Shown here: piece after piece, positions 1 to 21,654 of the stretch
How positions within the stretch are numbered: the stretch's first letter is position 1
Layout: every line of letters starts with the position of its first letter
Origin: Candidatus Binataceae bacterium
GTDB lineage: Bacteria > Desulfobacterota > Binatia > Binatales > Binataceae
DNA length: 64,000 nucleotides
Reading direction: 5' to 3'
NCBI GenBank assembly: GCA_963722605.1
Contig: CAVRNO010000004.1
Span: forward strand, 538,335-602,334
Notes under the pieces: generated by a model
Told to the model about the DNA's origin: nothing
The model's database searches: none
What the model saw: only the letters and a program-made list of their open reading frames with translations
Translations under genes and position numbers: made by a program

Positions 1-341
1 AAAAGCGGGTAGTAGAAAATGTCGAGCGGGAAGACCTCGGCTTTGTCGACGAAGTTTCCGACCTGCCAGCAGAGTGATCCTTTGGGTGAGAGGACGCGGA
101 CGAGTTCATCGACGATGGGGTTCAGCGCGGTCAGGTACGCGTCGAGATTGGTGGCCTTTTCGTACGCCTTTCCTAGATTGTAAGGAGGAGAGGTGATGAT
201 CAGCTTCGCCAGGCCGTCGGGCAGTTTGCGAAGCGTATCCAGACAGTCTCCGGGTGAAATTACCACCTCGGCGTTCGGGGCGTATGATGAGAAAATATCG
301 TGCCCGAAGAGGGTATCTGTTCGCTCAGTCTGGGATTTCAA
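1..341 (-). CDS. DNA methyltransferase (amino-MTase, N4/N6 class), N-terminal part; the gene runs off the window start
   Basis: Reverse-strand translation reads ...GDCLDTLRKLPDGLAKLIITSPPYNLGKAYE...RVLSPKGSLCWQVGNF, with an SPPY catalytic motif and a flanking pattern typical of DNA amino-methyltransferases. Only a TTG start (at 341) precedes the in-frame TGA. Not in the ORF track because it is truncated by the window edge. Confidence 0.55.
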   Translation of the reverse strand, partial: MKSQTERTDTLFGHDIFSSYAPNAEVVISPGDCLDTLRKLPDGLAKLIITSPPYNLGKAYEKATNLDAYLTALNPIVDELVRVLSPKGSLCWQVGNFVDKAEVFPLDIFYYPL

Positions 342-386
342 TTTTCACCGCCGCGGAATCTCTATATCACAGATTATTTTGTCAAT

Positions 387-623
387 GCGACTATGTTCCG
401 CGCTGCTCTCGCGGTCCGTCTTTTGAATCGCGGGGCGAGCTTGGAAAACGTCGCGGCGATTTCGGGAAATTCCGCGAAGGTCGCCGAAATGCACTATGCA
501 CTGTGGATAAAGTCCCGCCAGGATGAGTTGGACGCGGCGGTACGGGCCACGTTTTATGCATCTGCCGTTTCAATTCAGAAAGAAGATGGCGGATGTCGTG
601 ATCGGAAAGTCCGCGCGCTTTAA
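387..623 (+). pseudogene. 3'-terminal fragment of a tyrosine recombinase (integrase) gene
   Basis: The ORF tail ...NATMFRAALAVRLLNRGASLENVAAISGNSAKVAEMHYALW matches the integrase C-terminal pattern (..HTFA..LL..G..L..I....GH........Y). The upstream part of the ORF is not protein-like and no catalytic R..H..R region is present. Confidence 0.35.
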
Positions 624-817
624 GATTCTCGATGAGCTGGCTCTCAGTGAGATTCTCGCCCATACAATACCTCTCATCCCTCTTCTTTTCATTCTGAAGA
701 TAGTCTCATGTTCGGGTGAATATGCGACTTCCCTCGGACTTTCGGGATCAATAGCATTTCACCAACTCCTGACTGCAACCTTGACGAAGAGCGCTAGTGC
801 CTTACAATCAAGAGGTC

Positions 818-1087
818 ATGAGCTTGGCCACAAGAAGAAAAAGAGGAGGTGGTCGCGTGCCGCAGTATCACTACACGGCCGTTTTTGAGCCCGCCGTAGA
901 GGGCGGCTATATCGTTTCTGTTCCCGCGCTCCCGGGGCTGGTTACCGAGGGCGACACCATCGAAGAAGCCCGTGCGATGGTCAAGGACGCCATCCGGGGT
1001 TACATCGAGAGTCTGGTGAAGCATGGCGAAGAGATCCCGATTGAATCCGGCACCGCCAACGTGGAGCGCGTCGAAATAACTATTTGA
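818..1087 (+). CDS. hicB: HicB-family antitoxin (UPF0150)
   Basis: HYTAVFEPAVEGGYIVSVPALPGLVTEGDTIEEARAMVKDAIRGYIESL matches the HicB fold pattern (Y.a..e...dGgY.a.vPdlPGc.TqGeT.EEA....eAI). Confidence 0.75.
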   Translation: MSLATRRKRGGGRVPQYHYTAVFEPAVEGGYIVSVPALPGLVTEGDTIEEARAMVKDAIRGYIESLVKHGEEIPIESGTANVERVEITI

Positions 1088-1093
1088 GAACTC

Positions 1094-1254
1094 ATGCCGC
1101 ACCTGCCCGCTTGCACGCTCACTGATGTGATTCGAGCGCTGCTCCGGCCGGGTTTTTATTTAGTCGGGATCAGCACGTTGCTCTATTCGCGTGAGGTTGC
1201 GAGTACGAGATTCGCCCAGCTACCAGCGAACCGCGCCGAGTCCTGTATCACTTA
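1094..1254 (+). CDS. Degenerate HicA-like small ORF (53 aa), possibly an inactive toxin remnant
   Basis: MPHLPACTLTDVIRALLRPGFYLVGISTLLYS loosely parallels the HicA pattern (..eliklLe.dGwylvr.kGSHh.y) but lacks the GSHH histidines. It lies directly downstream of hicB. Confidence 0.25.
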
Positions 1255-1948
1255 GCTCAATATTGGCTTTCTTCCAGCGCCCGTCCGTTGGGTCTAGGAA
1301 GGTCACGGCGCGTCCCTCAAACGTCTGGTCATTATTCAGCTTGGTCGACGATACTGGCTCGTAGGTAAAGTTGACTGCCAGCATCTGAAGAGGGGTGCCC
1401 ATAGGCGAAGCCTGATACTCATTCACATATGTGATCGAGCGAAGCTTTCGTTTTGCCAGCTGAAGCTCAAAAGTGAACGCTTGCGAACCCGGCAGCCAAC
1501 CGTAGCTTTGGAGAGGCGCTCTCGTAACGGTGAATGCGGCTGACGATGGCCGGACGAAGTAGTAACTAATTCCATGAGAATCTCGAGCAGTGCAAGGAGA
1601 GACGTTCACGGCGCCCGTTCTTTTGAGGAAACTCAGTTTCACATCGGATGTGAACAATGTGTCCCCATCGACGATCGTGCGGAATGGACCGGCGCCCTTA
1701 CCGAGATCGTCGCTGCAACGCGCTTCGATCAGCTTGACCGCCTCCGGGTCAAGGGCCGCATCCCATTTCAGACCAATAGGGTCTGAGAATGGGGCGCTTT
1801 CGAATACGGCTTGATATGCTTCCGGAGGAACGCGTTTCGAACAGTTTGAGAGGGTCAAAGCGCACGAGAGCGCGAACGCCAACCGAAGAGTCCGTGCTAG
1901 AAGGGCACCCTGATAGAGGCCTAGGCACCTCTTCGCCTCGCGCAGCAT
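1220..1948 (-). CDS. Hypothetical secreted protein / putative lipoprotein
   Basis: N-terminal signal-like segment LRLAFALSCALTLSNCS and a GGAGG RBS 6 nt upstream; no recognisable domain. Confidence 0.5.
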   Translation of the reverse strand: MLREAKRCLGLYQGALLARTLRLAFALSCALTLSNCSKRVPPEAYQAVFESAPFSDPIGLKWDAALDPEAVKLIEARCSDDLGKGAGPFRTIVDGDTLFTSDVKLSFLKRTGAVNVSPCTARDSHGISYYFVRPSSAAFTVTRAPLQSYGWLPGSQAFTFELQLAKRKLRSITYVNEYQASPMGTPLQMLAVNFTYEPVSSTKLNNDQTFEGRAVTFLDPTDGRWKKANIELSDTGLGAVRW

Positions 1949-2045
1949 TTTTTCCCTCCGACCCGACGACCACCACGCAGACGCGACGTCAATAGCTTGA
2001 TTTCGAGTTGACGCTCGTCCTCGTGCTCACAACCCACCATAGACC

Positions 2046-2134
2046 GGAATTTCCATTTTCAATCCTGAATCGGATTAGCACCGACAGCTGGCGCTTTGCA
2101 AACGCGGAGTCCTCGCGCAGTTTGAGTCCCAGGG
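2046..2134 (-). promoter_or_regulatory. Conserved upstream element, copy 1 (shared with 3034-3122)
   Basis: About 90 bp (~70% identical to copy 2 by eye), with conserved blocks GGAATTTCCATTTT(C/G)AATC, TTAGCACC and TTGC(A/G)AACGCG. It lies ~100 nt upstream of the 1220-1948 gene on the minus strand. Confidence 0.45.
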
Positions 2135-2294
2135 ATTTTGAACGGCATCCTCAAGCATGCCGACCTCTCGACCGGCTCGCATCGTTTCTTTCGCCATCCA
2201 ACCAAGCCGGGCCTTGTGGTCGTACCGTTCCATCGCCGAGATCTGAAGCTCGGCCCACCAAGCGGCCGTTCTTACGCAAGCGGCAGCGGGCTTA

Positions 2295-3026
2295 CTACTC
2301 CTTGGCGCCGCCACGTTGAAGCTCGCGCACAACCTCTGCCAGTCCCATCTGCTTGGCCCGCAGTAGCGGCGTCTCATCGGAGTATTTGACGTTCACGTCA
2401 GCGCCGTGCGCGATAAGTTCGTGCACAGTCTCCTCGTTTCCGCTCCAGACTGCTTGTGTCAGAGCTGTCCCACCGTCATTCTCCTTGGCGTTCACGTCAG
2501 CGCCGTGGGCGATAAGCTCGTGCACGATCTCGGGGCTTCTCATCTGGGCGGCATACATCAGCGCTGTCCGGCCCTCATTCTGCTTGGCGTTTACGTCAGC
2601 GCCGTGGGCAATAAGCTCGCTCGCGATTACAGCATTTCCCCCATCGGCGGCATCTATGAGCGCCGTATTGCCGCGCCACGGACCATGGGCGTTTACGTCA
2701 GCCCCGTGGGCGATAATCTCGCCCACAGTCTCCGCGTGGTTCCCCCATATGGCCCTCATTAGAGCCTCCTGTAGTGCTGGCTTATTCTGTTGCATTCCTG
2801 CGGCGAGAAAGAGCTGGACCGCCGTATTGTCTCCCTCTTGAACCTTTTGAAGGAAGGCAGCCTCACTGTATTCGACTCCCATCGCCTCCAGCTTGGCGCG
2901 TGCCTTCTCTTCGTGCGTCTGGCAGGCGGATATGGCCAGGGCCAGCAGGGAAATCAGTGCTGCGAGAATCAGGTTCGACTGTCCCCCGCGCAGCCGGCAG
3001 CGAACGCACTGGTTTGGTTCGCTCAT
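2295..3026 (-). CDS. Ankyrin-repeat lipoprotein
   Basis: Repeated LIAHGADVNAK...TAL ankyrin units, and an N-terminal signal ending in the lipobox LAISAC. Alternative start at 3044 (MEIPPNM). Confidence 0.8.
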   Translation of the reverse strand: MSEPNQCVRCRLRGGQSNLILAALISLLALAISACQTHEEKARAKLEAMGVEYSEAAFLQKVQEGDNTAVQLFLAAGMQQNKPALQEALMRAIWGNHAETVGEIIAHGADVNAHGPWRGNTALIDAADGGNAVIASELIAHGADVNAKQNEGRTALMYAAQMRSPEIVHELIAHGADVNAKENDGGTALTQAVWSGNEETVHELIAHGADVNVKYSDETPLLRAKQMGLAEVVRELQRGGAKE

Positions 3027-3033
3027 ATTAGGT

Positions 3034-3122
3034 GGAATTTCCATTTTGAATCGTGATCTCGCTTAGCACCAACCGTGGGCAGCTCGCAAACGCGAAGTTC
3101 GAACTAGATTTTGAGTGCAAGG
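3034..3122 (-). promoter_or_regulatory. Conserved upstream element, copy 2
   Basis: Same conserved blocks as 2046-2134. Here it abuts or overlaps the start of the ankyrin gene (AAAATGGAAATTCC contains the ATG at 3044). Confidence 0.45.
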
Positions 3123-3343: not shown

Positions 3344-3577
3344 ATGCATCTTCATGCGCGACCCCAAACTCCAAAAAATTACCGCATCAGTCACCCTCGA
3401 AGTCGGCAGCTCGAACGGCTCAATGAAGCAGCCGACCGCGCGAGGGTCAGCCGCAGTGTGATTGTTCGAGACGCGATTGAACGCGAACTCAAGCGGTACG
3501 AGAAACCCAACGAGGTCGGCTACCCGCTGCCAAAGGCGAGCGGGACCGTCCTGCCAAAAACCGCAACGCGACCATGA
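3344..3577 (+). CDS. Ribbon-helix-helix (CopG/Arc-like) DNA-binding protein, first gene of the partition operon
   Basis: RLNEAADRARVSRSVIVRDAIEREL is an RHH motif; the stop overlaps the parA start (ATGA). Confidence 0.55.
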   Translation: MHLHARPQTPKNYRISHPRSRQLERLNEAADRARVSRSVIVRDAIERELKRYEKPNEVGYPLPKASGTVLPKTATRP

Positions 3578-4350
3578 CCAAGATTATCGCCATCGCGAAT
3601 CATAAAGGCGGGGTAGGGAAGACCACGTCTTCGCTCAATCTGGCGCACGCCTTGGCGATCGATGGGAAAACGCGCGTGCTCCTCTGTGACCTGGACCCGC
3701 AGGCGAGTCTCACGAAGCTCCTGGGCTTCGATCTTGCAACGCTGCCGCGCACGCTTTACGACCTCCTGCTGCAAACCGAGCCGCCGCTCTTGCCCGAGGA
3801 AATCATACAGCCCACGTCGATGTCCGGCGTGAGCCTCATTCCGGCGAACGGCCAACTGGCGAACGTCGAGACCCAACTCATCACGAGAATCAATCGAGAG
3901 CGATCGCTCGGCCGCGTGCTGCGTCCGCTCAGCGAAGCGTTTGACGTGGTACTCCTCGATTGTCCGCCCGCCTTGAATTTGCTCACCATGAATGCGCTCG
4001 CGGCTGCCGACGAGGTGCTCATTCCGGTTTCGAGCGAATACCTCGCGGTGCAAGCGCTGAGAGACTTCCTCGATACCGTCGAGGAGGTTCGCCGCGAGCT
4101 CAATCCGTCGCTCAAAATCGCCGGCATCGTGGTCACCCAATACCAGGCGAAGACGGAACACAGCAGGGGAACGGTGGAGGCGCTCCGCTCCGCATTCGGT
4201 CCCGCCGTGTTCGATTCCATCGTGCCGTATTCGGTCAGTGCGAAAGACAGCGTAGCGGCGGCGCAATCCATTTTGACTTACGAACCCACCTCGCCGGTCG
4301 CCGAGGCGTATCGGAACCTCGCTCGCGAACTCGTTGCGCCCCATGGCTAA
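3574..4350 (+). CDS. parA: ParA/Soj-family partition ATPase
   Basis: Deviant Walker A IAIANHKGGVGKTTSSLNLA; length and architecture match MinD/ParA. Confidence 0.9.
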   Translation: MTKIIAIANHKGGVGKTTSSLNLAHALAIDGKTRVLLCDLDPQASLTKLLGFDLATLPRTLYDLLLQTEPPLLPEEIIQPTSMSGVSLIPANGQLANVETQLITRINRERSLGRVLRPLSEAFDVVLLDCPPALNLLTMNALAAADEVLIPVSSEYLAVQALRDFLDTVEEVRRELNPSLKIAGIVVTQYQAKTEHSRGTVEALRSAFGPAVFDSIVPYSVSAKDSVAAAQSILTYEPTSPVAEAYRNLARELVAPHG

Positions 4351-5179
4351 AAAACTCAATTTCAAAGAAATCGGATTGCACGCAGTAAGCCCGAGGAGGC
4401 CGTCGGCCACCGCGCATCCCATTTCCCATTTGGCGGCGAATGCGGGCTTTCTCTATGTCCCGCTCGAACTGCTCCGGCCCGATCCCGACCAGCCCCGCAA
4501 ATATTTCGACGATGCGTCGCTCGACGATCTCACCGCATCGATCCGGGAGAAGGGCGTACTCCAGCCGATTTTGATTCGTAAGGAAGCGGCCGGCGAGGGA
4601 TTCGTCATCATCGCGGGTGAACGCCGCTGGCGTGCCGCCAAGGCGGTCGGCCTCAAAGAGCTTCCGGCGCTCATGCGCGATGCTCAGGATGCGCTCGAAG
4701 TCGCGCTCATCGAGAACGTGCAGCGAGAGAACTTGAAACCGCTCGAAGAAGCCGAGGCGCTCATGCGACTCAAGCAAGCACGCGGGTTTACCGATCAGGC
4801 GCTCGCCAAGATCATCGGCAAATCGCGCACGAGCGTGACCGAGCTCCTGACCCTCAATCAGCTGCCGGAGTCGATAAAAAAACAATGTCGAACGTCCGAC
4901 ATCTGGACCCGCAGTCAACTCTTGCAGCTCGTTCGCGCGGGATCACCCAAAGAGATTGAGGGAGTGTGGGCGAGGATTAAGGACGGGTCGGGCGCGACCG
5001 TGAGAGATTTGAGACGAAGCTCCCGGTCTGCCGGAAGGAAGCGTGCGGGTGGGCGATACCGGTTTTTGCACAAGCCCAAGGGCCGAACATTCCAGGTCCT
5101 CGTCACCTTCTCCAAAGCGAAGGCTACGAGATCGGAGGTCGGAGCCGCGCTCAAGGACGCTCTCAAACATTTACCCTAA
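4334..5179 (+). CDS. parB: ParB/Spo0J-family partition protein
   Basis: ParB N-terminal domain with the GERRWRAAKAVGL box; translationally coupled to parA. Confidence 0.85.
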   Translation: MRPMAKKLNFKEIGLHAVSPRRPSATAHPISHLAANAGFLYVPLELLRPDPDQPRKYFDDASLDDLTASIREKGVLQPILIRKEAAGEGFVIIAGERRWRAAKAVGLKELPALMRDAQDALEVALIENVQRENLKPLEEAEALMRLKQARGFTDQALAKIIGKSRTSVTELLTLNQLPESIKKQCRTSDIWTRSQLLQLVRAGSPKEIEGVWARIKDGSGATVRDLRRSSRSAGRKRAGGRYRFLHKPKGRTFQVLVTFSKAKATRSEVGAALKDALKHLP

Positions 5180-5184: not shown

Positions 5185-6065
5185 ATGGAGTCACAGCCAA
5201 ACAACGAACAACGCAAGCCCCTCGTCAGTGTCGAATTTCAGACGGAGGTTGATGTCGCGACCGGCGACCGCGAGCGGCGGATGTTCATCAAAATGTACTT
5301 CGAGGCGCGTGACAGCGGGTTGCTCGCGGCGATTCCGGGTGAACTTTGGAAGATGCTATGCTGCCTCGCAACGTATATGAACGAAGACGGCAACTGCTAT
5401 CCGACGCAAGACAGAATCGCGCGCGATTTGGGCATTCGGCGACAGCGGGTAAACGAGCGGATTCAAAACCTCCTGAACTTCCGCTTTAATGGTCAGCCGG
5501 TCTTAAGCCTAAACCGCAAAACTCGAATTCGCGGTCGTTGGAACAACAACGTCTATCGCATCCAACCAATCTCGGCGCTCAAAATCTTCGATAAAACCGA
5601 GGGTTCTACCGTGTCCGCAAATCCGGACATGGCTCAAAAGCGTGCTACCGTGTCCGCTTCTACGGACACCGTGATAACGGACACCGTTGGCACGGACACT
5701 AACCAGATGCAGAGATTAACAAGACGTTTAAACGTTAATGATTTAGAAAAGTCAGCTTTGGAAAAGGGGACGCGAGTCAGGGCATTTCAGATTCCGAATT
5801 GCACGCTGCACGCCAACGCCGCATGTTGATCGCCGATATTCTGGAAGTCTGCGGAGACCAGCACTCGCGCGGTTTCTATACTCGGGTCGTGCAGAAGCTG
5901 CCGGCTGAAGTAATCCGCGCGGCGCTTTCCGAGACCAAGTATCAGGCGCAAACCGGAAAAATTAGAAAATCAAAAGGCGCTTTTTTTACGGACGAATTGA
6001 TGCGCCTCGCCCGGAAACGGGGAATCGATTTGCGAATCCCGGCTCCGCCGCGAGGGGCAGTCTAA
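5185..6065 (+). CDS. Replication-initiator-like winged-HTH protein; two ORFs (5185-5829, 5799-6065) joinable by a 1-nt shift at a G-run
   Basis: HTH segment NCYPTQDRIARDLGIRRQRVNERIQNLL. The downstream frame continues coherently (GDASQGISDSELHAARQRRMLIADILE...KSKGAFFTDELMRLARKRGIDL) if the G4 at 5766-5769 is read as G5. Confidence 0.5.
5606..5699 (+). repeat. Iteron-like short repeats inside the rep-like gene
   Basis: CTACCGTGTCCGC occurs twice (5606, 5645) and ACGGACACCGT three times with 15-bp periodicity (5662, 5677, 5692). The two motifs are near reverse complements of each other (GGACAC / GTGTCC core). Confidence 0.4.
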
Positions 6066-6134: not shown

Positions 6135-6941
6135 ATGAGTAAGGTGAGGAAGGAGGAGGCAAACGGCGACCTCAAACCGCCGTTAAAGTGGGCGGGCGGC
6201 AAGCGGTGGCAGGTTCCACACCTGCGCGCGTTGTGGGCAGATCATAAACACCGTCGCCTCGTAGAGCCGTTTTGCGGAGGACTCGCAGTTACGGTTGGAC
6301 TCTCTCCAGACCGGGCATTTCTCAACGATATTAATCCGCATCTGATAAATTTCTACCGCTCGCTCAAGCGCGGCCTGAGAACTTCGGTCGCGATGATGAA
6401 TGACGAGCTCGCGTACTACGAGCAACGCGCCCGCTTCAACCAACTTCTCGCGGAAGGCAAAGGTGATTGCGAGGAAGCCGCAGCTCTTTTCTATTACCTC
6501 AACCGAACGGGTTACAACGGTCTTTGCAGATTCAATCAGAGCGGCCGTTTCAACGTGCCGTTCGGTCAGTATGCCCAAATCACATATACGCGCGACTTCA
6601 TGCCCTACCGCAGGCTATTCGCCAAATGGGAATTCGTGAGCATGGACTTCGAGACTGTGCCGCTCGAAGACGAAGATTTTGTATACGCTGATCCTCCGTA
6701 CGACGTGGAGTTCACGCAATATTCAAAGCAGGGATTCAGTTGGGAGGAACAGGTACGCGCGGCCGAGTGGCTCGCGAAGCACCCGGGCCCCGTTGTGCTC
6801 TCGAACCAAGCCACGGAACGAATCGTGACCCTGTACCGGAAGCTAAAATTCAAGCTCAAGTTTCTCGATGCTCCTCGCATGATAAGTTGCACCGGCGATC
6901 GCACTCCGGCTCGGGAGGTTCTTGCGATCAGAAATTTCTAA
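6135..6941 (+). CDS. dam: Dam-family DNA adenine methyltransferase (GATC class)
   Basis: Motifs LKWAGGKRW, FCGGLAV and FVYADPPYD. The track ORF starts at 6084; the internal ATG at 6135 is the more likely start. Confidence 0.85.
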   Translation: MSKVRKEEANGDLKPPLKWAGGKRWQVPHLRALWADHKHRRLVEPFCGGLAVTVGLSPDRAFLNDINPHLINFYRSLKRGLRTSVAMMNDELAYYEQRARFNQLLAEGKGDCEEAAALFYYLNRTGYNGLCRFNQSGRFNVPFGQYAQITYTRDFMPYRRLFAKWEFVSMDFETVPLEDEDFVYADPPYDVEFTQYSKQGFSWEEQVRAAEWLAKHPGPVVLSNQATERIVTLYRKLKFKLKFLDAPRMISCTGDRTPAREVLAIRNF

Positions 6942-6944
6942 GTA

Positions 6945-8354: not shown

Positions 8355-8725
8355 CGTGTCGTGACTGGCTCCTAGCAAACCGCTACGAAGACGTAGCTTT
8401 GTTAATCGATAACGCTATCGCCAAAATGGTAGCTCGGGGTAGCAAACAGCGGAGAAACTGGTGGGATATTTTGTCAGGTGCCGTCGATGGAAGGCCCTGC
8501 GTTCGCGAAGGCATCGAGTTTCCGGTGCTGCGTACAGCCCAAATCCGCCAGGGTAAACCAATCACCAAGAACGCGATTGCGAGGAACAATCACGAAAAAC
8601 CTCCAGAAATCGTGACGACCGGCCGCTGGATAAAAAAGAAGCTACCAATCCGCGCTCAACCCTTAGCAAACGATCGATCCAACCCGCAGAAATCGGAACA
8701 ACTGAAACGGAGACGCGTGTCCTAG
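8351..8725 (+). CDS. Hypothetical protein (124 aa)
   Basis: Translationally coupled to the upstream gene; basic C-terminus; no recognised domain. Confidence 0.45.
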   Translation: MTCRDWLLANRYEDVALLIDNAIAKMVARGSKQRRNWWDILSGAVDGRPCVREGIEFPVLRTAQIRQGKPITKNAIARNNHEKPPEIVTTGRWIKKKLPIRAQPLANDRSNPQKSEQLKRRRVS

Positions 8726-15025: not shown

Positions 15026-15275
15026 GCGGAGTTATGGATATTCGCAGTTTGTGCGGCGAGCCGATCCTCTCCAAGTCCCACGTCACACAGCACGAGCAAG
15101 ACGGCGAGCATCACTATCACGAGTACGGCATTTACCACTCCACCCTCTGCTATTAGACCGCCACTCAGAGCCGCCGCACATTCTGTGGATAACTCAGCTT
15201 GCCGAAATGACTATCTGTCGTAGGGTGAAATGAGCATGACTCGGTATTGAACTGAGTCTTGAAAGGAGAATCAAA

Positions 15276-15548
15276 ATGGCTAAAGGAAGGAAACCGGACT
15301 TCCGGGTGATGTTCCCAGTCACCGCAACGGTAGGGAACGGGAACAATCAGGAAAAGAAGACGCGCTGGCATCGTCATGGCGCGGCGTGGAGGCGCGAGGG
15401 CGGCAGTATCGGGATAGTGCTCGATGTGGGCGTGAAACTTGAGTATCCGGCCGGCGCGCAGCTTGTGCTCGTCGAGGAAAAGGAATTTGAGAGACGGGTC
15501 CAGGAAGGGCGGGCGGCCGGCGCGGATGAGGAAGATATCCCATTCTAA
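15276..15548 (+). CDS. Hypothetical small protein (90 aa)
   Basis: RBS AAAGGAGAA 7 nt upstream of the ATG; no recognised domain. Confidence 0.4.
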   Translation: MAKGRKPDFRVMFPVTATVGNGNNQEKKTRWHRHGAAWRREGGSIGIVLDVGVKLEYPAGAQLVLVEEKEFERRVQEGRAAGADEEDIPF

Positions 15549-15582
15549 CCCCGAGGCGCGCCGAGCCTCCCAGGGAACCATC

Positions 15583-16158
15583 ATGGGCAATTTGCTCAAA
15601 TTCGATGAGATCAAACGGATCCCTGTTGTGCAGGTGCTGGCGCGCTACAGGGTCAAGCTCCACTTCAACGGGACAGGAGCGAGTGCGCTCTGTCCACTCA
15701 AAACGCACCGAGCTGGCGAGAAAGAGCGAACCTTCAGCGTCCACCTCGACCGCAACTACTGGCAGTGCTTCTCGGCCTCGTGCAATTCGCAGAATGGGGG
15801 CCGGCGCGGCGGCGACGTAATCGATCTAGTTGCGCTCATGGAAGGTTGCCGAATGAGAGAAGCTGCCGAGAAGCTCGCCGAGTGGTACGGAATAAAAAGC
15901 GCCCCTCACATGGAGGAGCGCCGCGTGCCACAGGAGCACGCATCAATCAAGGGCTATTCAGATTCTAAGCCCGCGAGCGATAGCGTCAAGGCGAAGTACA
16001 CGGCGCACGTGGAGGAATGGTATCGAGAGCTGACCACGCGACGACAGGGAGAGGATGACGCCGGTTTTGAAAAGCGAGTGCTCACGGGTATCAAGAGCAA
16101 ACTGATTGAGAGTTATCGGAACGGAAAGGCGGCTCAGTCTGCTCGGCCAGATCGGTAG
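15583..16158 (+). CDS. CHC2 zinc-finger primase-like protein (DnaG-type zinc-binding domain)
   Basis: ALCPLKTHRAGEKERTFSVHLDRNYWQCFSASC...GGDVIDLV has the C-H-C-C zinc-ribbon spacing of the primase N-terminal domain; internal ATG at 15583 (MGNLLKF). Confidence 0.6.
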   Translation: MGNLLKFDEIKRIPVVQVLARYRVKLHFNGTGASALCPLKTHRAGEKERTFSVHLDRNYWQCFSASCNSQNGGRRGGDVIDLVALMEGCRMREAAEKLAEWYGIKSAPHMEERRVPQEHASIKGYSDSKPASDSVKAKYTAHVEEWYRELTTRRQGEDDAGFEKRVLTGIKSKLIESYRNGKAAQSARPDR

Positions 16159-17019: not shown

Positions 17020-18282
17020 CTAGTTACGCAGAATACGCTCGATGTCGGTTTGGATCTCGGTCTTTGGTTTTCCGGTGTTGGCCATTGCCCAGGCGATTGC
17101 TTTGCGGGCCGGTAATTCGTCTCCGGCGGCTTCGGGCTTTTCAATGAGGGCTACGGGATCGCTCAAAATTGGCTGGTTGTCGTTCATGGTGAACGCGACG
17201 AATTGATAGTTGGGGAGCTTGACGAGCTGTTCGGCGATCTCCTTGTCGCCGAAGTTGATGCCGATTTTCTCGGAATCGTCTCCAGATACTCTGAACGAGA
17301 AGATGTGCGAGCAATTCCCAAACGCGATGCGGTCGTTGAAGATGCGGCGGCTCTCGTCGCGCATCTGCTGGGTCGTCTGCGTAGCGAACAAATAATGGAT
17401 GCCGAATTTTCTTGATTCCGCGAGCATGGATTCAAAGTCAATGCCGTCGGTGAAGTTGTGGATTTCGTCCACGATGACGAGGACGGGCTTGTTGCGGTGC
17501 TTCCGGCGGAACGAGGCGAGATTGATTTTCGAGAGGATGAGCGAGCCAAGGACTTTGGCTGGCCGCTCGCCGATGAGCCCTTTGGGAATCCGGCAAAGCA
17601 ATATCTTCTGTCGGTCGAGAATCGTTTGAAAGTTGAGCGAGCGCTTCTGCGCGAGGAATTCGACGAGTCCGGGGCGCATGAGTTCCTCGATTTTATTGAG
17701 CGGATGGGAGAAGTTGCGGGCGCGTTCTTGGGGCTTCAGGTCGCGGAAGTATTGCTGGTGAAAGTCCTGCACGAGCGGGTTGGCGGATTTTGAGAGGAGT
17801 GCATCCGCAAATTTGCCGCGTGCGAGGATTTTGTAGATATCTAAAACGGTGGGGTGTTCTTGAGTTTCGAGCACGGCATCCGTAGCGCCCCGGATGATAT
17901 GCGCGGTCTCCGGACCCCAGCCGCTTCCAGCGTGGGCTTCCATGAGGCTCATGAAGGCCTGCACAGCCTTTTCTCTGTCCGGATAATCGAAGATGCCAAG
18001 GTCGGGAGCGCGGTCGTTTTCCGGGTTGATATAGACGATGTCCTTAAGGCGCGTTTGCGGGATGTAGTTGAAGATGTCGTAAATCAAATCGCCGTGAGGG
18101 TCTATCACGGCAACGCCGAAGTTATTGCGGATCGCCTCGACAATGATGTTGCGGAGAAGCGTCGATTTTCCTGTGCCGGACTTTCCGAGAAGCCAGCCGT
18201 GGCGGAATTGGCGGCGATCGAGATCAATCGAGAAGTATTTTTGTCCGCCGGAAGTATGGGTGAGGCCGATAGGAATGTTCAT
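17020..18282 (-). CDS. Type IV coupling-protein-like P-loop ATPase (TraD/TrwB/VirD4 family), soluble form
   Basis: LLGKSGTGKSTLLRNIIVEAIRNNFGVAVIDPHGDL (Walker A plus the hhDPxGd motif of T4CPs) and Walker B VLVIVDEIHNF. No N-terminal TM segment. Start at 18282 (MNIPIGL). Confidence 0.55.
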   Translation of the reverse strand: MNIPIGLTHTSGGQKYFSIDLDRRQFRHGWLLGKSGTGKSTLLRNIIVEAIRNNFGVAVIDPHGDLIYDIFNYIPQTRLKDIVYINPENDRAPDLGIFDYPDREKAVQAFMSLMEAHAGSGWGPETAHIIRGATDAVLETQEHPTVLDIYKILARGKFADALLSKSANPLVQDFHQQYFRDLKPQERARNFSHPLNKIEELMRPGLVEFLAQKRSLNFQTILDRQKILLCRIPKGLIGERPAKVLGSLILSKINLASFRRKHRNKPVLVIVDEIHNFTDGIDFESMLAESRKFGIHYLFATQTTQQMRDESRRIFNDRIAFGNCSHIFSFRVSGDDSEKIGINFGDKEIAEQLVKLPNYQFVAFTMNDNQPILSDPVALIEKPEAAGDELPARKAIAWAMANTGKPKTEIQTDIERILRN

Positions 18283-18375: not shown

Positions 18376-19207
18376 TCAGTATAGCGAAAGAAGTGAATAT
18401 GTGTTGTGCGAATCGTCTTTTGGAGTCTCGAAAACAGGTCCGCTGATATCAGACTTGTAAAGCTCTTCAGTGGTCAGCCAAAACATCCGGTGGTTTAGCT
18501 TGTCGCGCAATACTTTTAAGAGGTTCTGACGCCGGGTGTCGTTGGTCTGTACGACAATGACGCGGAATTTGTTGAAACCCCAATCGTTAAGGCATTCGTC
18601 GGTGTCGTAGTATTCGGCATATCTTGCCAGCTTCCTGATGATGTTCGGTTCGCCGTCGATGTATTTGCTGTTCTTCGACTTCTCGATTTCGAGGAAGAAT
18701 CGCGTCTCGCCCTGTTCCTTGGTCAGTTTAAGGAGGGCGTCGGGGTGAATACCGCGCTTCAAGTCGGACTGCTGCCAGTAAGGTTCAAAGCCTTGAGTTT
18801 CGGCGAACTTTCTCGTAGCGATGTGGAAAAAACTGATTTCGAGCTCGTGGTCGAGAGTACGTCGAGAGTGTTCATCGAACGTCTTGCCGCCGAACTCGGC
18901 AACGGCTTTGTCCGATAGGCCATAGACGTAACCGATGCCTCCTTTCTCGCGGCCGAGTTCGAAGTAGGGGAGGCGGTTCGCCCATCCGTCGTTAAACAGC
19001 TTGAGGAGCGTGAGACGGGCGCGGAGCTGATTCGGCGGGAGTAGGTTCGCCGTCTGAAAGCAATGCGGCTACGTCCTGGGGCCGGAGGCAGAAGTATTCA
19101 GCGAGGAGGCTTAGGACGCTTCTCTTTGTGCGGGTTCGGGGGCTGAGTAGTAGGTTCGTCCGGCGGCCCGCCGTCGAGATCCTTCGTTTTGCTAGAACTT
19201 GAGGCAT
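18376..19207 (-). pseudogene. Replication-relaxation (Replic_Relax) family gene with one apparent frameshift
   Basis: The N-terminal wHTH (MPQVLAKRR...RSVLSLLAEYFCLRPQDVAALLSDGEP) is in one frame. The rest (NQLRARLTLLKLFNDGWANRLPYFEL...LDHELEISFFHIATRKFAE...RFFLEIEKS...FRVIVVQTNDTRRQNL) is in another. Removing one C from the CCC in the minus-strand GAACCTACTCCCGCC (forward GGG run at 19037-19039) yields a continuous ...GEPTPPNQLRARL... reading frame. Confidence 0.5.
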
Positions 19208-20690
19208 TACTGTTAGTATAACATGCTCTGTCCATCGGTTCGGCTTTGTACTGGTGGTCTGTGACGCGGTCAATGATTTCTGCGCAACTGGCTGGATTGT
19301 GCTTATCGTACGGTGGTGGAGTGGGAATGGTGCGGCATATTCGGTGAGGAATAGAGAGATAGAGACATTGCCCTTTGGGCATGTGTAGAAGTTCTTTTTG
19401 ATAGTCGGCAGTGGAGAGAGATTGGTCTTTCGCAATCTCGCTTTCGAGGTGTGAGATTTTCTCCTCAAGGTCGTAAGCGCGGCCGTTGTATCTCATGTAT
19501 TCGTCTAATTTTCTGTCGTTGTAGGCTTCGCGTTCCCTTTTTTCCGCCATGGTTTGGCCCTTTTCTTTTTGGAGATAGGATTCGTTGGCTAGCCCCGCGA
19601 GTGTTTCGGCATCATGGAGCTCGGCTTGTAGCTGCTCAAGTTCGTAGGAGCGGTCCCTGGGGACGTGCGGCTGCGGGAAATAGGGTTTGAATCGGGCGGT
19701 GTCTTCGGGGTCACTGTTGAAGAGATAATAATTGTTGGTGTTTTTGAATGTGGCGGCCCATGTCGCTGAATCAATTTGGCTGGGGTATTGGGTAATGAGG
19801 GTGAGGTGTAACCCTAGTCCTCCGGCACGAGAGAGCATGTCGGGAAAATCCGAAGTCTGATAGAGATGAAACTCATCGGCATAGAGATGATGGTGCATAG
19901 GAATGGGTTTGCCGATAAATCGGTAAAAGTGCTGCCGGATTTTCGCCACAATGAGGCCGGCATAAATCTTCTGGGGCTCGGTAAGCCTGCCGATGTCTAC
20001 GAGAATAATTCGTTGTTGCCGGATTGCTTGGCTGATATTGAGTTTCGGATTAGGGCAATCGAACATGCGGTGGAGGATGTCGGATGTCATGAAGTCCGAT
20101 AGACGTGTCGTGAGATGGCGGAGATTTTCTCCGGTCGGAATGTTGTTTGGGTCCGCCCAATAATCTCGTAATTTCTGCTGGCGCAATCTGGAAATGATTT
20201 CGCGTTGTCGGACTTTATTGGTGAGGAAATAGTTGAGATCGAGGAATGTCGCGCGTTTCTCGGATGGGGTTTTGGGGTTGTCGTTGTAGTCGAGGAATGC
20301 GCTCACGATCCAATCGGCATTGGCTTTGATGATGGGCATCGATACGGTGTTGGCCGTCTTTAAGAGAAGGAACTTAATCTCGGCGACCACTTCGTCTTTT
20401 TCGATATGTCGCTCCCATTCGTCTTGACCTTCCACGCTCATAAAGTCGATAGGAATCTGGCTTTTCATATCGAGGTAAATCACTCGGTGAGCGTGAGCGC
20501 GAGGAATCCATTGTTTGAGCTGCAGCACGAGCTCGGACTTGGCGTCGATGACGGTGACGCCACGCCCGCGATTGATGTCCGCGAGGATGCGATGGAACGC
20601 GAGAGTTGATTTACCGGATTGGGTTTTGCCCTGGATGTAGAGGTGTGGGTTTTGAGGGTCGTCCGCTAGGGCGTCTTCGTAATTAGCCAT
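19098..20690 (-). CDS. Second T4CP-like / FtsK-HerA-like P-loop ATPase
   Basis: YIQGKTQSGKSTLAFHRILADINRGRGVTVIDAKSEL (Walker A plus a DPxGE-like motif) and Walker B HLYADEFH; no TM segment. Start at 20690 (MANYED). Confidence 0.5.
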   Translation of the reverse strand: MANYEDALADDPQNPHLYIQGKTQSGKSTLAFHRILADINRGRGVTVIDAKSELVLQLKQWIPRAHAHRVIYLDMKSQIPIDFMSVEGQDEWERHIEKDEVVAEIKFLLLKTANTVSMPIIKANADWIVSAFLDYNDNPKTPSEKRATFLDLNYFLTNKVRQREIISRLRQQKLRDYWADPNNIPTGENLRHLTTRLSDFMTSDILHRMFDCPNPKLNISQAIRQQRIILVDIGRLTEPQKIYAGLIVAKIRQHFYRFIGKPIPMHHHLYADEFHLYQTSDFPDMLSRAGGLGLHLTLITQYPSQIDSATWAATFKNTNNYYLFNSDPEDTARFKPYFPQPHVPRDRSYELEQLQAELHDAETLAGLANESYLQKEKGQTMAEKREREAYNDRKLDEYMRYNGRAYDLEEKISHLESEIAKDQSLSTADYQKELLHMPKGQCLYLSIPHRICRTIPTPPPYDKHNPASCAEIIDRVTDHQYKAEPMDRACYTNSNASSSSKTKDLDGGPPDEPTTQPPNPHKEKRPKPPR

Positions 20691-20898
20691 CGTAGGGTAC
20701 GCCTTGGAGATGGAGGCGCGTGTAGTACAGGGCAAAGAGAAGAAATCCTATCGCGGCGAAAATATCGAGATAGGCAATGAAAAGGTGCAGGTGGAAATAT
20801 AAAAGGATACCGATGCCGATGAGAGTTGAGATGGTTGCGAGATAACAGAGTCCGGCGCGAACGAAGTATTCATCTTTCGGTTGTTTGGCCCAGTTCAT
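20683..20898 (-). CDS. Small membrane protein (71 aa, two predicted TM helices)
   Basis: Hydrophobic stretches LCYLATISTLIGIGILLYF and IFAAIGFLLFALYY; directly upstream of and overlapping the ATPase gene. Confidence 0.4.
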   Translation of the reverse strand: MNWAKQPKDEYFVRAGLCYLATISTLIGIGILLYFHLHLFIAYLDIFAAIGFLLFALYYTRLHLQGVPYDG

Positions 20899-20900
20899 AG

Positions 20901-21042
20901 CCGCCCCGTCGTCCCGTTAGGGCGACTCGAAAGAGGGGCAGTCCACACCAAGCGGTAGCGCAGCCCGAACGATAGTGAAGGGTCATCAGACGATAGTATG
21001 ATGAGCGGGGACTGCCCCTCGTTAGAGGCGAGACGGGGCGGC
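20901..21042. other. Nested inverted-repeat element (candidate oriT, att arm region or structured RNA)
   Basis: Outer 11-bp helix GCCGCCCCGTC (20901-20911) pairs with GACGGGGCGGC (21032-21042). Inner 12-bp helix GAGGGGCAGTCC (20933-20944) pairs with GGACTGCCCCTC (21009-21020). There is a local hairpin at 20912-20927, an internal TCATCA/TGATGA hairpin, and CGTTAG(A)GGCGA occurs twice. Confidence 0.45.
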
Positions 21043-21177
21043 AACCAGTCAATCGGGAAAATTGTGCATTCGCGCGGGTAATCCGCGCAACTCCGTTCGG
21101 GGGGTGTATTTGGTTTGTAAACTCTCACGTTCATTCTGCGTTCTTCTCATAGTGGAGAAGTTTTGATATGTAAAGGG

Positions 21178-21205
21178 CAGCCCCTACCCTTTTGGGTAGG
21201 GGGCG
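21178..21205. promoter_or_regulatory. Near-perfect palindrome upstream of the excisionase-like gene (operator candidate)
   Basis: CCCCTACCC-TTTT-GGGTAGGGG about 75 nt upstream of the ATG at 21281; no T-tract follows, so a terminator is unlikely. Confidence 0.4.
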
Positions 21206-21280
21206 CACAGGCGCAAGCCGCCGTAGCGGAAGCGTCTGAGAGTCTCACTTCTCCCGCTATTGGGAGAGGCGGAGACGCGC

Positions 21281-21592
21281 ATGGACGGTTCGGAACGCTG
21301 GTACTCGATTAAGGAGGTTGCAGCGCGGTACGGAGTCGGACGGGATACGATAGTCCGGCGGATCAAGAAAGGGCACTTGAAGGCGCTCGTCATGCCGGGC
21401 AAATCGTCCGTGCGGAGCCGAGTGTACAATGTGCGCCGTATTCACGAGAGCGAGTGCAACGCTTCGAGCGGGAGAACACGGTGTCCCGCTAGGGTACGAG
21501 GAGGGCGGTCGATTGACCGCCTTTCTTTTTGGCGTACTTGGGGCGTACTTGGGAGGCGCGTTTTCCGCGCTTTGTGCATATCGAGAGTGTAG
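21281..21592 (+). CDS. Excisionase / AlpA-like HTH DNA-binding protein
   Basis: WYSIKEVAARYGVGRDTIVRRIKKGHLKALVMPG is the excisionase-family HTH. GGAG RBS ~9 nt upstream. The C-terminal part of the ORF is probably non-functional read-through. Confidence 0.55.
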   Translation: MDGSERWYSIKEVAARYGVGRDTIVRRIKKGHLKALVMPGKSSVRSRVYNVRRIHESECNASSGRTRCPARVRGGRSIDRLSFWRTWGVLGRRVFRALCISRV

Positions 21593-21629
21593 GAAAATCA
21601 AAGACTTTATGATTGGCGGGACGGCTTGA

Positions 21630-21654
21630 TGGTTCAATTCCCCCCGCCTCCACC
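21630..21654 (+). other. tmRNA/tRNA 3'-end-like fragment (T-loop, acceptor 3' strand, CCA); candidate attR core
   Basis: GGTTCAATTCCCCCCGCCTCCACCA resembles the 3' end of ssrA (remembered E. coli end ...GGGGGUUCAAAUCCCCCCAGCUCCACCA). The upstream GATGG cannot form the T-stem with CCCCC and no cloverleaf body is present, so this is a fragment rather than a gene. It coincides with the G+C shift. Confidence 0.45.

What the first reader, a model, noticed from the sequence alone, without database searches (positions are those of the whole stretch)
1..21654. Right-hand arm of an integrated mobile element ending at a tmRNA/tRNA 3'-end-like repeat
The first ~21.6 kb is visibly lower in G+C than the remainder. 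It contains almost exclusively mobile-element functions: DNA MTases, hicB, RHH-parAB, Rep-like protein, tyrosine integrase, DUF932-like, CHC2 primase-like, Replic_Relax, two T4CP-like ATPases and an excisionase-like HTH. The compositional switch coincides with the tmRNA-like fragment at 21630-21654, immediately before the chromosomal MBL hydrolase gene. The element continues beyond the window start. The integrase is internal rather than terminal, and a second integrase 3' remnant lies at 387-623, so the region may be a tandem or composite array of elements.
Basis: partly seen in the sequence, partly recalled or inferred. Interest (0 to 1): 0.6.

Follow-up and report, generated by a model that had tools for sequence, protein, structure and literature searches.

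The report
Mobile island inserted at tmRNA gene
The first 21.6 kb of the window is the right-hand part of a mobilizable genomic island that inserted into the 3' end of the tmRNA gene (ssrA) of a Candidatus Binatus bacterium. It is an ordinary, well-understood kind of element, here partly decayed, with a swap-in slot for defence-type cargo.

Summary
Confirmed. Bases 1-21630 are 54.6% G+C against 61.8% for the rest, and their tetranucleotide usage lies outside the chromosomal range.

Close relatives carry smpB-ssrA-MBL with no island, and identity to the window starts at the first base of that 25-mer.

A complete sibling element (~30 kb, JGI contig Ga0480580_001284) has this layout: intact ssrA, core, a terminator supplied by the element, a 342-aa tyrosine integrase (Int342), hicBA, parAB, a rep-like gene, Dam and a PD-(D/E)XK nuclease, variable cargo, an internal XerD-like recombinase (Int326), DUF932, a primase-like gene, two coupling-protein-like ATPases, a MobC relaxase and an excisionase-like gene. 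It ends in the same arm and core, next to a different chromosomal flank.

So the internal integrase is a family feature, not evidence of a tandem array. The "remnant" at 387-623 is the C-terminus of the truncated ssrA-proximal integrase.

The window copy looks immobilised. The integrase is truncated, hicA is disrupted, and the RHH, rep-like, relaxase and excisionase genes carry frameshifts.

The left end and the intact ssrA lie outside the window and could not be retrieved.

Verdict: new member of a known kind, modest interest.

The parts
1..264 (-). 5' part of an N4/N6 DNA methyltransferase gene (SPPY motif). It runs off the window start and is not part of the sibling element's architecture.
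   Evidence: Translation. 104 homologues, all carrying PF01555, best 84% identity. No DNA match in any fetched locus.
387..623 (+). 3' remnant of the ssrA-proximal tyrosine integrase (Int342 clade). The N-terminal ~264 aa and attL are missing, and the box-II His is replaced (FRAAL versus FRHTL).
   Evidence: 77% identity over 56 aa to Int342 residues 287-342. DNA homology window 437-754 = L180 1119-1436. 48% identity to the selC-linked Int336.
857..1087 (+). hicB antitoxin (76 aa), intact.
   Evidence: Exact sequence is in the collection. 90-93% identity to the HicB of L089 and L180.
1094..2253 (+). hicA toxin gene, disrupted. Fragments lie at 1094-1161 and 2162-2253, separated by a 1-kb rearranged insert (1162-2161) that holds an unannotated 242-aa ORF (1220-1948, minus strand).
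   Evidence: blastn against L089 and L180. Sequence reading. No Pfam, PADLOC, NCBIfam or PHROGs hit for the ORF.
2295..3044 (-). Ankyrin-repeat protein gene, lying in a segment (2254-3149) that is absent from related elements.
   Evidence: Pfam Ank 2e-29. The segment is missing in L089, L180 and L088.
3354..3577 (+). RHH_1 regulator gene upstream of parA, with a 1-nt deletion at about 3407.
   Evidence: tblastn of the sibling's 74-aa RHH splits into two frames. Indel context.
3574..5179 (+). parA (3574-4350) and parB (4343-5179) partition genes, intact.
   Evidence: Pfam AAA_31 6e-53 and ParB_N 3e-29. 97-98% identity to relatives. Exact sequences are in the collection.
5185..6065 (+). HTH_36 replication-initiator-like gene, split into two frames (5185-5829 and 5799-6065). 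It is a single 291-315-aa ORF in relatives.
   Evidence: Pfam HTH_36. tblastn frame split. Indels.
6135..7361 (+). Dam-type MTase (6135-6941) and PDDEXK_11 nuclease-fold protein (6987-7361).
   Evidence: Pfam. Gene starts verified by exact look-up. The same pair occurs in L007 and L180.
7533..12873 (+). Variable cargo slot. It holds unannotated ORFs of 273, 124 and 210 aa and an 886-aa protein (10213-12873). That protein has a kinase-like P-loop domain, then unknown domains, then a classical AAA+ ATPase.
   Evidence: No hits in Pfam, PADLOC, NCBIfam or PHROGs. 766 homologues. AF2 model pLDDT 92.6. Foldseek hits to RuvB/Vps4/p97 for the C-terminus and to adenylate/thymidine kinases for the N-terminus. 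The same slot holds RM, CRISPR-Cas or SMODS genes in relatives.
12999..13979 (+). Internal XerC/D-like tyrosine recombinase (Int326).
   Evidence: Pfam Phage_integrase and Phage_int_SAM_1. The 326-aa product is in the collection. 95.6-97.9% identity in L089, L088 and L098.
14309..16158 (+). DUF932 protein (14309-15025), small ORFs (one frameshifted at about 15140), and a CHC2 zinc-finger primase-like protein (15583-16158).
   Evidence: Pfam. PHROGs primase hits. Exact look-ups. 95-97% identity to L098.
17020..18282 (-). Coupling-protein-like ATPase, 420 aa (TrwB_AAD_bind, DUF87/HerA, TraG-D_C).
   Evidence: Pfam and NCBIfam. PHROG 5156 at 1.6e-40. 88.8% identity to L098.
18376..19207 (-). MobC-type (Replic_Relax, PF13814) relaxase gene with a frameshift near 19025. 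It is 274 aa in the sibling.
   Evidence: Weak Pfam hit on the 128-aa ORF. The sibling protein carries PF13814. Residues 1-58 and 60-267 lie in different frames.
19098..20690 (-). Second coupling-protein-like ATPase, 530 aa (TraG-D_C).
   Evidence: Pfam. PHROG 5156. Exact look-up. 41.8% identity to the 522-aa protein of L098.
21281..21592 (+). HTH_17 excisionase-like gene. A 1-nt deletion at about 21455 changes the last ~10 codons and extends the ORF (70 aa in the sibling).
   Evidence: Pfam HTH_17 3e-7. Alignments.
21589..21630 (+). Element-side arm of attR (TGTAGGAAAATCAAAGACTTTATGATTGGCGGGACGGCTTGAT), conserved in the sibling.
   Evidence: Alignment A2. L098 tail sequence.
21631..21655 (+). 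attR core: the last 25 nt of ssrA (T-loop to CCA), the displaced original 3' end of the gene.
21670..22659 (+). Chromosomal flank: MBL-fold hydrolase gene. It lies directly downstream of intact ssrA in relatives that lack the island.

Best explanation
Window 1-21655 is the distal (attR) part of a genomic island in the chromosome of a Candidatus Binatus (Binataceae, Binatota) bacterium. The island belongs to a family of ~30-kb integrative mobilizable elements.

Integration. A tyrosine integrase of the 'Int342' clade is encoded right next to the target. It recombines an attP site, which carries a copy of the last 25 nt of ssrA followed by a terminator hairpin, with the 3' end of the chromosomal tmRNA gene. 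ssrA stays intact: its 3' end is now supplied by the element. The original 25 nt end up at the far side as attR.

Modules. The element carries:
- a plasmid-like maintenance module (hicBA, RHH-parAB, an HTH_36 rep-like gene, and an internal XerD-like recombinase, inferred to resolve multimers);
- a variable cargo slot between the rep/Dam-PDDEXK genes and that recombinase, which holds RM, CRISPR-Cas or CBASS-type genes in relatives;
- a mobilisation module (MobC relaxase, two coupling-protein-like ATPases, DUF932, a primase-like gene) without a mating-pore apparatus, so transfer would need a helper conjugative element;
- an excisionase-like gene next to attR.

State of this copy. It is probably no longer mobile. 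The ssrA-proximal integrase is reduced to 78 C-terminal codons, hicA is broken, and the RHH, rep-like, relaxase and excisionase genes carry frameshifts.

Shown: the insertion site, attR, the family architecture and the gene disruptions. Inferred: the roles of the two recombinases, mobilisation in trans, a replicative circular form, and immobility.
For: Composition break exactly at the core.

Empty sites. L002, L003 and L004 have MBL 95.7% identical to the window's and carry smpB(-)/ssrA(+)/MBL. The CCA end lies 14 nt before the MBL ATG, and identity to the window begins at GGTTCAATT.

Sibling element on one 30,196-bp contig. L180:1-127 is the ssrA 3' part ending in the core. It is followed by the hairpin GAAAAACCCTTGAAATTCAAGGGTTTTTT and Int342. 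L098 ends with the same arm and core, then a flank that is 100% identical to the unoccupied ssrA downstream region of Ca. Binatus sp. SPRUCE 224, L010.

Gene order from Dam to HTH_17 is the same as in the window. DNA identity is 87-93% over the aligned backbone segments of the right arm, and only ~75% or undetectable in the intervening stretches.

Integrase assignment.
- An integrase 59% identical to Int342 again follows ssrA, core and hairpin in L193.
- A 54%-identical integrase follows tRNA-Sec with a homologous arm but a selC core in L088/L095.
- Int326 is 95.6-97.9% identical in elements at ssrA, at selC and in a third context.

Mobilisation module. PF13814 is the MobC relaxase superfamily (PMC5357655). 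Pfam and NCBIfam hits support the two ATPases. No Pfam T4SS family other than coupling-protein families appears among the ORFs scanned in the window or the genes called on the sibling.

Cargo variability.

Disruptions. Six chromosomal genes compared with L003 show no frameshift.
Against: The left end in the source genome was not seen. The 937,815-bp source contig could not be retrieved and is not among the GTDB species representatives returned. An intact ssrA with a matching core upstream is therefore inferred from the sibling, not observed.

DNA left of about 387 (the MTase gene) matches nothing fetched. The total island size, and whether another element lies upstream, are unknown.

The frameshifts could be assembly errors. 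They are not in homopolymers, but the chromosomal control covers only about 7 kb.

No oriT was identified, and no excision product or circular form is documented. The function of Int326 is assigned by reasoning only.
Confidence: 0.85

Rival explanations
1. The 21.6 kb is a tandem array of two independent ssrA-specific elements: a left one ending with the integrase at 12999-13979 and a right one from DUF932 to attR. They would have arisen by successive integrations (accretion).
For: The ParAB-rep-cargo-Int326 block (window 792-13978) recurs at 90-92% DNA identity in contigs whose sequence diverges immediately after the Int326 stop codon (L089/L090). The transfer genes there are only about 28% identical and lie on the other side. 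Tandem ssrA islands are known in Dehalococcoides (PMC3146451).
Against: There is no second copy of the ssrA core anywhere in the window. None is found at up to 3 mismatches, and no gapped match rises above chromosomal background. The whole order Dam...Int326-DUF932-CHC2...HTH_17-attR is conserved in an independent insertion in another host, with 93% identity running straight across the Int326/DUF932 junction. An ancient fusion of two modules is possible, but it predates this insertion.
Confidence: 0.08
2. The internal recombinase Int326 is the enzyme that integrates the element into ssrA. The remnant at 387-623 is irrelevant debris from another element.
For: Int326 is the only intact tyrosine recombinase in the window. 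It is conserved in all relatives.
Against: Int326 is 95.6-97.9% identical in elements sitting at ssrA (window, L098), at tRNA-Sec (L088/L095) and in a third context without either gene (L089). It therefore cannot set site specificity. The Int342 clade is found directly downstream of the target RNA gene, with a homologous attP arm, in all four independent contexts examined. Its divergence tracks the change of core from ssrA to selC. Int342 and Int326 share only 24% identity over a partial (190-aa) alignment.
Confidence: 0.08
3. The island is still mobile. The frameshifts are sequencing or assembly errors, and an intact integrase (its own 5' part beyond an insertion, or that of an upstream tandem element) is encoded just left of the window.
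For: The source looks like a long-contig metagenome assembly, where single-base indels occur. Most genes, including ParAB, Int326, both ATPases, DUF932 and CHC2, are intact. Foreign low-G+C DNA continues to the window start.
Against: hicA is disrupted by a 1-kb rearrangement, not a point indel. The integrase remnant has also lost a catalytic-box His. The clearest indels lie in non-homopolymer contexts. None of the top 120 homologues of Int342 comes from a 937,815-bp contig, although that listing is incomplete. Six neighbouring chromosomal genes are free of frameshifts.
Confidence: 0.2
4. The region is a prophage or phage satellite integrated at ssrA.
For: ssrA is a classical prophage site. An HTH_17 excisionase and a tyrosine integrase are present. 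PHROGs matches exist for the primase-like protein and the ATPases.
Against: No capsid, portal, tail or lysis gene is present, and there is no terminase gene as such. The only terminase-annotated PHROG match is a secondary hit of the coupling-protein-like ATPase. This holds for the window and for the complete sibling. A relaxase, coupling proteins and ParAB point to a plasmid/IME lifestyle.
Confidence: 0.02

Closest known systems
Tyrosine-integrase genomic islands and prophages at ssrA (e.g. E. coli CP4-57, Vibrio cholerae VPI-1; Williams' survey of t(m)RNA integration sites). Cited from my own knowledge; VPI-1 and E. coli islands at ssrA also appear in PMC7574455 and PMC7545054, listed.
   Same: The target is the 3' end of the single-copy tmRNA gene. 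The gene is reconstituted by an element-borne copy of its 3' end. The integrase gene lies immediately downstream of ssrA, and the displaced 3' fragment forms a direct repeat at the far end. The identity block runs from the T-loop to CCA.
   Different: The host phylum is uncultured Binatota. The cargo and the plasmid-like/mobilisation modules differ. A second, internal XerD-like recombinase is present. In this copy the site-specific integrase is truncated.
Dehalococcoides ssrA-specific genomic islands (ssrA-GIs; McMurdie et al. 2011, PMC3146451)
   Same: They are IME-like islands at ssrA with a short direct repeat of the ssrA 3' end. The crossover is in the T-loop region, the cargo is strain-specific (including CRISPR modules), decay and accretion are discussed, and no transfer apparatus of their own is encoded.
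   Different: They use a serine recombinase (DsiB, CcrB-like) and a 20-bp repeat, in multi-island tandem arrays. Here a tyrosine recombinase and a 25-bp repeat are used, and no internal repeat occurs within the 21.6 kb.
Integrative and mobilizable elements encoding a MobC (PF13814) relaxase with a VirD4-type coupling protein (streptococcal IME_Class_8; Coluzzi et al. 2017, PMC5357655)
   Same: A compact module of coupling protein, PF13814 relaxase, excisionase and integrase without a mating-pore system. Evolution is modular, with exchange of integration modules and accretion.
   Different: Those IMEs use serine integrases, are small, and occur in Firmicutes. Here there are two coupling-protein-like ATPases, a tyrosine integrase, ParAB/rep-like maintenance genes and a size of ~30 kb. 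No tblastn match of the relaxase was found in 72,556 plasmids.
Defence-cargo hotspots in mobile elements (P4-like satellites, SXT ICE hotspot 5). Cited from my own knowledge.
   Same: A fixed position between conserved backbone genes carries different defence systems in otherwise near-identical elements. Examples here are type I RM with SLFN and SMODS, Bpu10I-type RM, an MTase with a ResIII endonuclease, and type I-U/I-G CRISPR-Cas.
   Different: The backbone and host are different. The window's cargo has no recognisable defence domain.

Membership tests
t(m)RNA-gene-targeting integrative element (genomic island) | Inserted at the 3' end of an RNA gene, shown by a related genome with an uninterrupted site. 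| tested here: met
   L002, L003 and L004 carry ssrA directly followed by MBL. Identity to the window starts at 21631.
t(m)RNA-gene-targeting integrative element (genomic island) | Direct repeat of the gene's 3' end at both ends (attL within the intact gene, attR as a fragment). | tested here: inconclusive
   attR is present. attL lies outside the window and the source contig could not be fetched. Both repeats are present in the complete sibling.
t(m)RNA-gene-targeting integrative element (genomic island) | Site-specific integrase gene adjacent to the reconstituted RNA gene. | tested here: inconclusive
   Only a 78-codon 3' remnant is in the window. An intact Int342-clade gene sits next to ssrA in L180 and L193.
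t(m)RNA-gene-targeting integrative element (genomic island) | Recombination directionality factor (excisionase). | tested here: met
   An HTH_17 protein lies next to attR. It is conserved in the sibling at 70 aa, but frameshifted near its 3' end here. Its function was not tested.
Integrative mobilizable element (IME) | Relaxase gene. | tested here: met
   PF13814 (MobC) is recorded on the 274-aa sibling protein. The window orthologue is 93% identical over residues 60-267 but frameshifted.
Integrative mobilizable element (IME) | No mating-pair-formation (T4SS) genes of its own. | tested here: met
   No Pfam T4SS family other than coupling-protein families appears among the ORFs scanned in the window or the genes called on the sibling. 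The unseen DNA left of the window is not covered.
Integrative mobilizable element (IME) | oriT recognised by the relaxase; transfer demonstrated. | not testable with these tools
   No oriT model exists for this MobC branch. Mating assays would be needed.
Integrative conjugative element (ICE) | Complete T4SS (VirB4-type ATPase and membrane components). | tested here: not met
   None is found in the window or in the complete sibling.
Prophage | Capsid, portal, terminase or tail genes. | tested here: not met
   PHROGs and Pfam give no structural hits.
Dehalococcoides-type ssrA-GI | DsiB serine recombinase integration module. | tested here: not met
   Only tyrosine recombinases (PF00589) are present.

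The most novel reading that the evidence does not exclude
The slot between the rep/Dam-PDDEXK genes and the internal XerD-like recombinase is a dedicated exchange site for defence cargo. Under this reading, the window's unannotated cassette is a new anti-phage or anti-plasmid system. The cassette spans 7533-12873 and includes the 886-aa protein with a degenerate kinase-like P-loop domain, unknown middle domains and a classical AAA+ ATPase. Its N-terminal family has hundreds of members and no Pfam model. A bolder variant is that Int326 itself mediates the cassette exchange rather than multimer resolution.
Probability: 0.2. Interest if true: 0.6.

Novelty: new member of a known kind. Interest (0 to 1): 0.3.

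Why it matters
The finding gives a cleanly delimited example of an ssrA-targeting integrative mobilizable element in the uncultured phylum Binatota. It includes exact att sites, empty-site controls and a complete sibling.

It also defines an integrase clade whose att core switches between ssrA and tRNA-Sec while the flanking attP arm and terminator stay homologous. That is useful for island-finding software and for studying how integrases retarget.

The conserved cargo slot is a practical place to mine soil metagenomes for defence systems. The unannotated cassette in this window is one candidate.

For genome annotation, the first 21.6 kb should be treated as a decaying island rather than core chromosome. 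None of this is conceptually new.

Tried and rejected
1. Retrieving the source contig. Exact look-ups of ParA, the 242-aa ORF and the 100%-identical MBL protein found no retrievable record, although the proteins are listed on a 937,815-bp NCBI/ENA contig.

2. Genome scan with SmpB. It gave the taxonomy and empty sites, but not the source.

3. Metagenome scan with ParA. It added only four close loci and did not contain the sibling contig.

4. Searching with the partial MTase at the window start. It returned only short homologues of at most 84% identity and no context.

5. Exact HicB look-up. It led to a chromosomal hicBA locus, not to the island.

6. An 81%-identical MBL relative (L001) has no ssrA nearby, so synteny holds only among closer relatives.

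7. Looking for att repeats around the L089-type element and at the borders of the ParAB-Int326 block. Nothing was found beyond the hicB promoter.

8. A core-like stretch at 331-357 and one near 12.98 kb were tested and are at chance level.

9. Plasmid database search with the relaxase: no match.

11. Low-G+C patches elsewhere in the window show no mobile-element domains.

Full report
**Observation.**
The compositional claim holds. G+C is 54.6% for 1-21630 and 61.8% for 21656-64000 (sliding profile). In a tetranucleotide comparison, every 4-kb window starting before 20 kb lies at distance 0.023-0.038 from the chromosomal profile. Windows wholly in the chromosomal part have mean 0.0147 and maximum 0.020.

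- ParA, ParB, an HTH_36 protein, a Dam MTase and a PDDEXK_11 protein;
- a tyrosine recombinase with a SAM-like N-domain;
- DUF932 and a CHC2 zinc-finger protein;
- two ATPases with TrwB/TraG-D_C signatures;
- a weak Replic_Relax match, an HTH_17 protein and an ankyrin-repeat protein.

HicB and a second MTase running off the window start are confirmed by translation and homology.

ARAGORN and Rfam at gathering thresholds find no RNA gene in the window. A permissive Rfam search aligns only the last ~25 nt before 21655 to the tmRNA 3' end with high posterior. It is unique in the window at up to 3 mismatches.

**Empty sites.**
The MBL protein downstream has a 100%-identical entry on a 937,815-bp NCBI/ENA contig, which could not be fetched. 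A 95.7%-identical MBL (P0071) lies on contigs that could be read. In L002, L003 and L004 the order is smpB(-), a 358-nt tmRNA gene with tag ADNNGYALAA, then MBL. The next two genes downstream are also syntenic with the window.

The alignment shows that the window and the empty sites are identical from GGTTCAATT onward and unrelated before it. The island is therefore an insertion into the ssrA 3' end, and 21631-21655 is the displaced original end of the gene.

A genome scan with SmpB places the host in Candidatus Binatus/Binataceae. The divergent smpB/ssrA pair is conserved there, and the 25-mer is invariant across the family.

**Family and complete sibling.**
Proteins of the window cluster at 90% identity or more with proteins from many peat and soil metagenome contigs. 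The most informative is JGI contig Ga0480580_001284 (30,196 bp), read as L180 (left part) and L098 (right part).

Its left end is the 3' part of an intact ssrA ending in the core. Next come a hairpin with a T-run (GAAAAACCCTTGAAATTCAAGGGTTTTTT) and a 342-aa tyrosine integrase (Int342) starting 84 nt after the CCA. The rest of the element runs in this order:
- small ORFs and glycosyltransferase cargo;
- hicBA, RHH-parAB, an HTH_36 gene, Dam and PDDEXK;
- cargo: type I RM, SLFN_AlbA_2 and SMODS;
- a 326-aa XerD-like recombinase (Int326);
- DUF932 and CHC2;
- on the other strand, a 420-aa ATPase, a 274-aa Replic_Relax protein, a 522-aa TraG-D_C protein and a 208-aa protein;
- a 70-aa HTH_17 protein.

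It ends with the same arm as the window (…GATTGGCGGGACGGCTTGAT), the same 25-bp core, and then a different flank. That flank is 100% identical over 119 nt to the sequence downstream of an unoccupied ssrA in Ca. Binatus sp. SPRUCE 224, L010. This is a second, independent occupied/empty pair. Core to core, the sibling measures about 29,975 bp.

**Which recombinase does what.**
The window's "remnant" (387-623) is 77% identical over 56 aa to the C-terminus of Int342. DNA homology continues about 200 bp past the gene end. It is therefore the truncated ssrA-proximal integrase of this very element.

Int342-clade genes sit directly downstream of the target RNA gene in every context examined:
- L180, at ssrA;
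- L193, at ssrA, 59% identity, with the same core and hairpin;
- L088/L095, where a 54%-identical integrase follows tRNA-Sec. There the arm and hairpin are homologous, but the core is that of selC.

Int326, in contrast, is 95.6-97.9% identical in elements at ssrA, at selC and in a third context. It shares only 24% identity with Int342, over a partial alignment.

I conclude that the Int342 clade sets the integration site (inference from association). Int326 belongs to the plasmid-like block hicBA-parAB-rep-cargo, most plausibly as a multimer resolvase. That last role is inferred and untested.

**Tandem array?**
The block 792-13978 recurs at ~90-92% DNA identity in L089-type contigs. Their sequence diverges right after the Int326 stop, and their transfer genes (~28% identical) lie on the other side. 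The family is therefore mosaic.

However, the fused order seen in the window is conserved at 93% identity across the Int326/DUF932 junction in the independent sibling. No second core copy exists in the window, either ungapped or gapped above chromosomal background. A tandem array within the window is therefore unlikely.

What lies left of about 387 (the MTase gene and beyond) matches nothing fetched and remains unresolved.

**Mobilisation.**
PF13814 corresponds to the MobC relaxase superfamily, which in streptococcal IMEs pairs with VirD4-type coupling proteins (PMC5357655). The two ATPases hit TrwB_AAD_bind, TraG-D_C, T4SS-DNA_transf and TraD models weakly but consistently. Both also match PHROG 5156.

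No Pfam T4SS family beyond the coupling-protein families turns up among the ORFs scanned in the window or the genes called on the complete sibling. The element is therefore best described as an integrative mobilizable element that needs a helper for mating-pair formation (inference). The relaxase has no tblastn match in 72,556 plasmids.

**State of this copy.**
Relative to its relatives, the window copy shows these defects:
- the integrase is truncated and has lost a box-II His;
- hicA is split by a 1-kb rearranged insert;
- an ankyrin-gene segment is inserted at 2254-3149;
- frame changes are present in the RHH gene (about 3407), the HTH_36 gene, a small ORF (about 15140), the relaxase (about 19025) and the HTH_17 gene (about 21455).

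The clean 1-nt indels are not in homopolymers. Six adjacent chromosomal genes are collinear and in frame with L003. I therefore favour real decay (about 0.6), but assembly error cannot be excluded.

**Cargo.**
The segment between the rep-like gene and Int326 differs in every relative: type I RM with SLFN and SMODS, Bpu10I RM with HSDR_N, an MTase with ResIII-RE and a PHP/SMC protein, or type I-U/I-G CRISPR-Cas. The homology breaks lie at about 5999 and 12920.

In the window this slot holds ORFs of 273, 124 and 210 aa and an 886-aa protein. None has a hit in Pfam, PADLOC, NCBIfam or PHROGs.

The 886-aa protein:
- It has 766 homologues. Most are ~600-aa proteins that match only its N-terminal two thirds.
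- The C-terminal third recurs at the C-terminus of STAND NTPases.
- An AF2 model reaches pLDDT 92.6.
- The C-terminus is a classical AAA+ module resembling RuvB, Vps4 and p97.
- The first ~220 residues resemble adenylate and thymidine kinases, with a degenerate P-loop.
- An 80%-identical homologue stands alone in a chromosomal context.

A defence role is suggested only by position.

**Comparison and verdict.**
Integration into the ssrA 3' end, with the gene reconstituted and a displaced repeat left behind, is a textbook mechanism. Known examples include the tyrosine-integrase islands of Enterobacteria and Vibrio (my own knowledge; PMC7574455, PMC7545054) and the Dehalococcoides ssrA-GIs, which use a serine recombinase and a 20-bp repeat (PMC3146451).

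This is a new member of that kind in a little-studied phylum. It has three modestly interesting features: two recombinases with separable roles, an ssrA/selC retargeting pair, and a defence-cargo slot.

Interest is 0.3.

Noticed in passing
L020:4274-4298 and 9470-9494; L023:1468-1490: Another Binataceae genome has a second exact copy of the 25-bp ssrA core 5.2 kb downstream of ssrA. The two copies bracket SpoIID, DUF4922, GT2 and AmiA-like genes with no integrase, which may be an old immobilised island. L023 has a 23-nt copy 6.8 kb downstream of its ssrA.
   Followed up: partly
window 21670-22659; L008-L010: The MBL hydrolase gene that abuts ssrA (ATG 14 nt after the CCA) is itself variable. 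In three closely related Binatus species, ssrA is followed directly by the NicO-like gene with no MBL.
   Followed up: partly
L088:6709-6900; L095:46-240: Relatives of the element sit at tRNA-Sec. Their integrase is 54% identical to Int342, and the post-core hairpin and arm are homologous, but the core is that of selC. This is a natural example of integrase/att retargeting between ssrA and selC.
   Followed up: partly
window 857-1087; L182-L191: The element's 76-aa HicB is identical in sequence to a chromosomal hicBA copy found between CoA-transferase and aminotransferase genes in several Binatus assemblies. This implies recent exchange between chromosome and element.
   Followed up: no
window 10213-12873; L192:8001-10661: An 886-aa protein with a kinase-like degenerate P-loop domain, unknown middle domains and a classical AAA+ C-terminus. 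Its N-terminal family (hundreds of members, one fused to a Ser/Thr kinase) has no Pfam model. An 80% homologue stands alone, preceded only by an 84-aa ORF.
   Followed up: partly
L007:14245-20777: A related element (ParA 92% identical) carries a Cas3-like helicase, Cas_GSU0053, Cas_GSU0054 and Cas2 (type I-U/I-G-like) in the same cargo slot. The same locus has a run of short repeated ORFs at 798-1535, which was not examined.
   Followed up: no
L185:318-7682: Next to the chromosomal hicBA locus, one assembly carries a different island with a 443-aa Arm-DNA-bind_3 integrase, a CAP12-PCTIR TIR protein, a DUF5925-AAA protein and a PDDEXK_4 protein.
   Followed up: no
window 26005-26852 versus L003:14348-15567: A response-regulator gene lies between the Ion_trans_2 and P450 genes in the close relative. 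It is absent from the window, which has about 850 bp of unmatched sequence there.
   Followed up: no
window 28000-30000, 46000-49000, 60000-62000: Three further dips in G+C (55-58%) occur in the chromosomal part. Pfam shows Rrf2 and RRM proteins plus unannotated small ORFs, with no mobile-element domains. Their tetranucleotide distances stay within the chromosomal range.
   Followed up: partly
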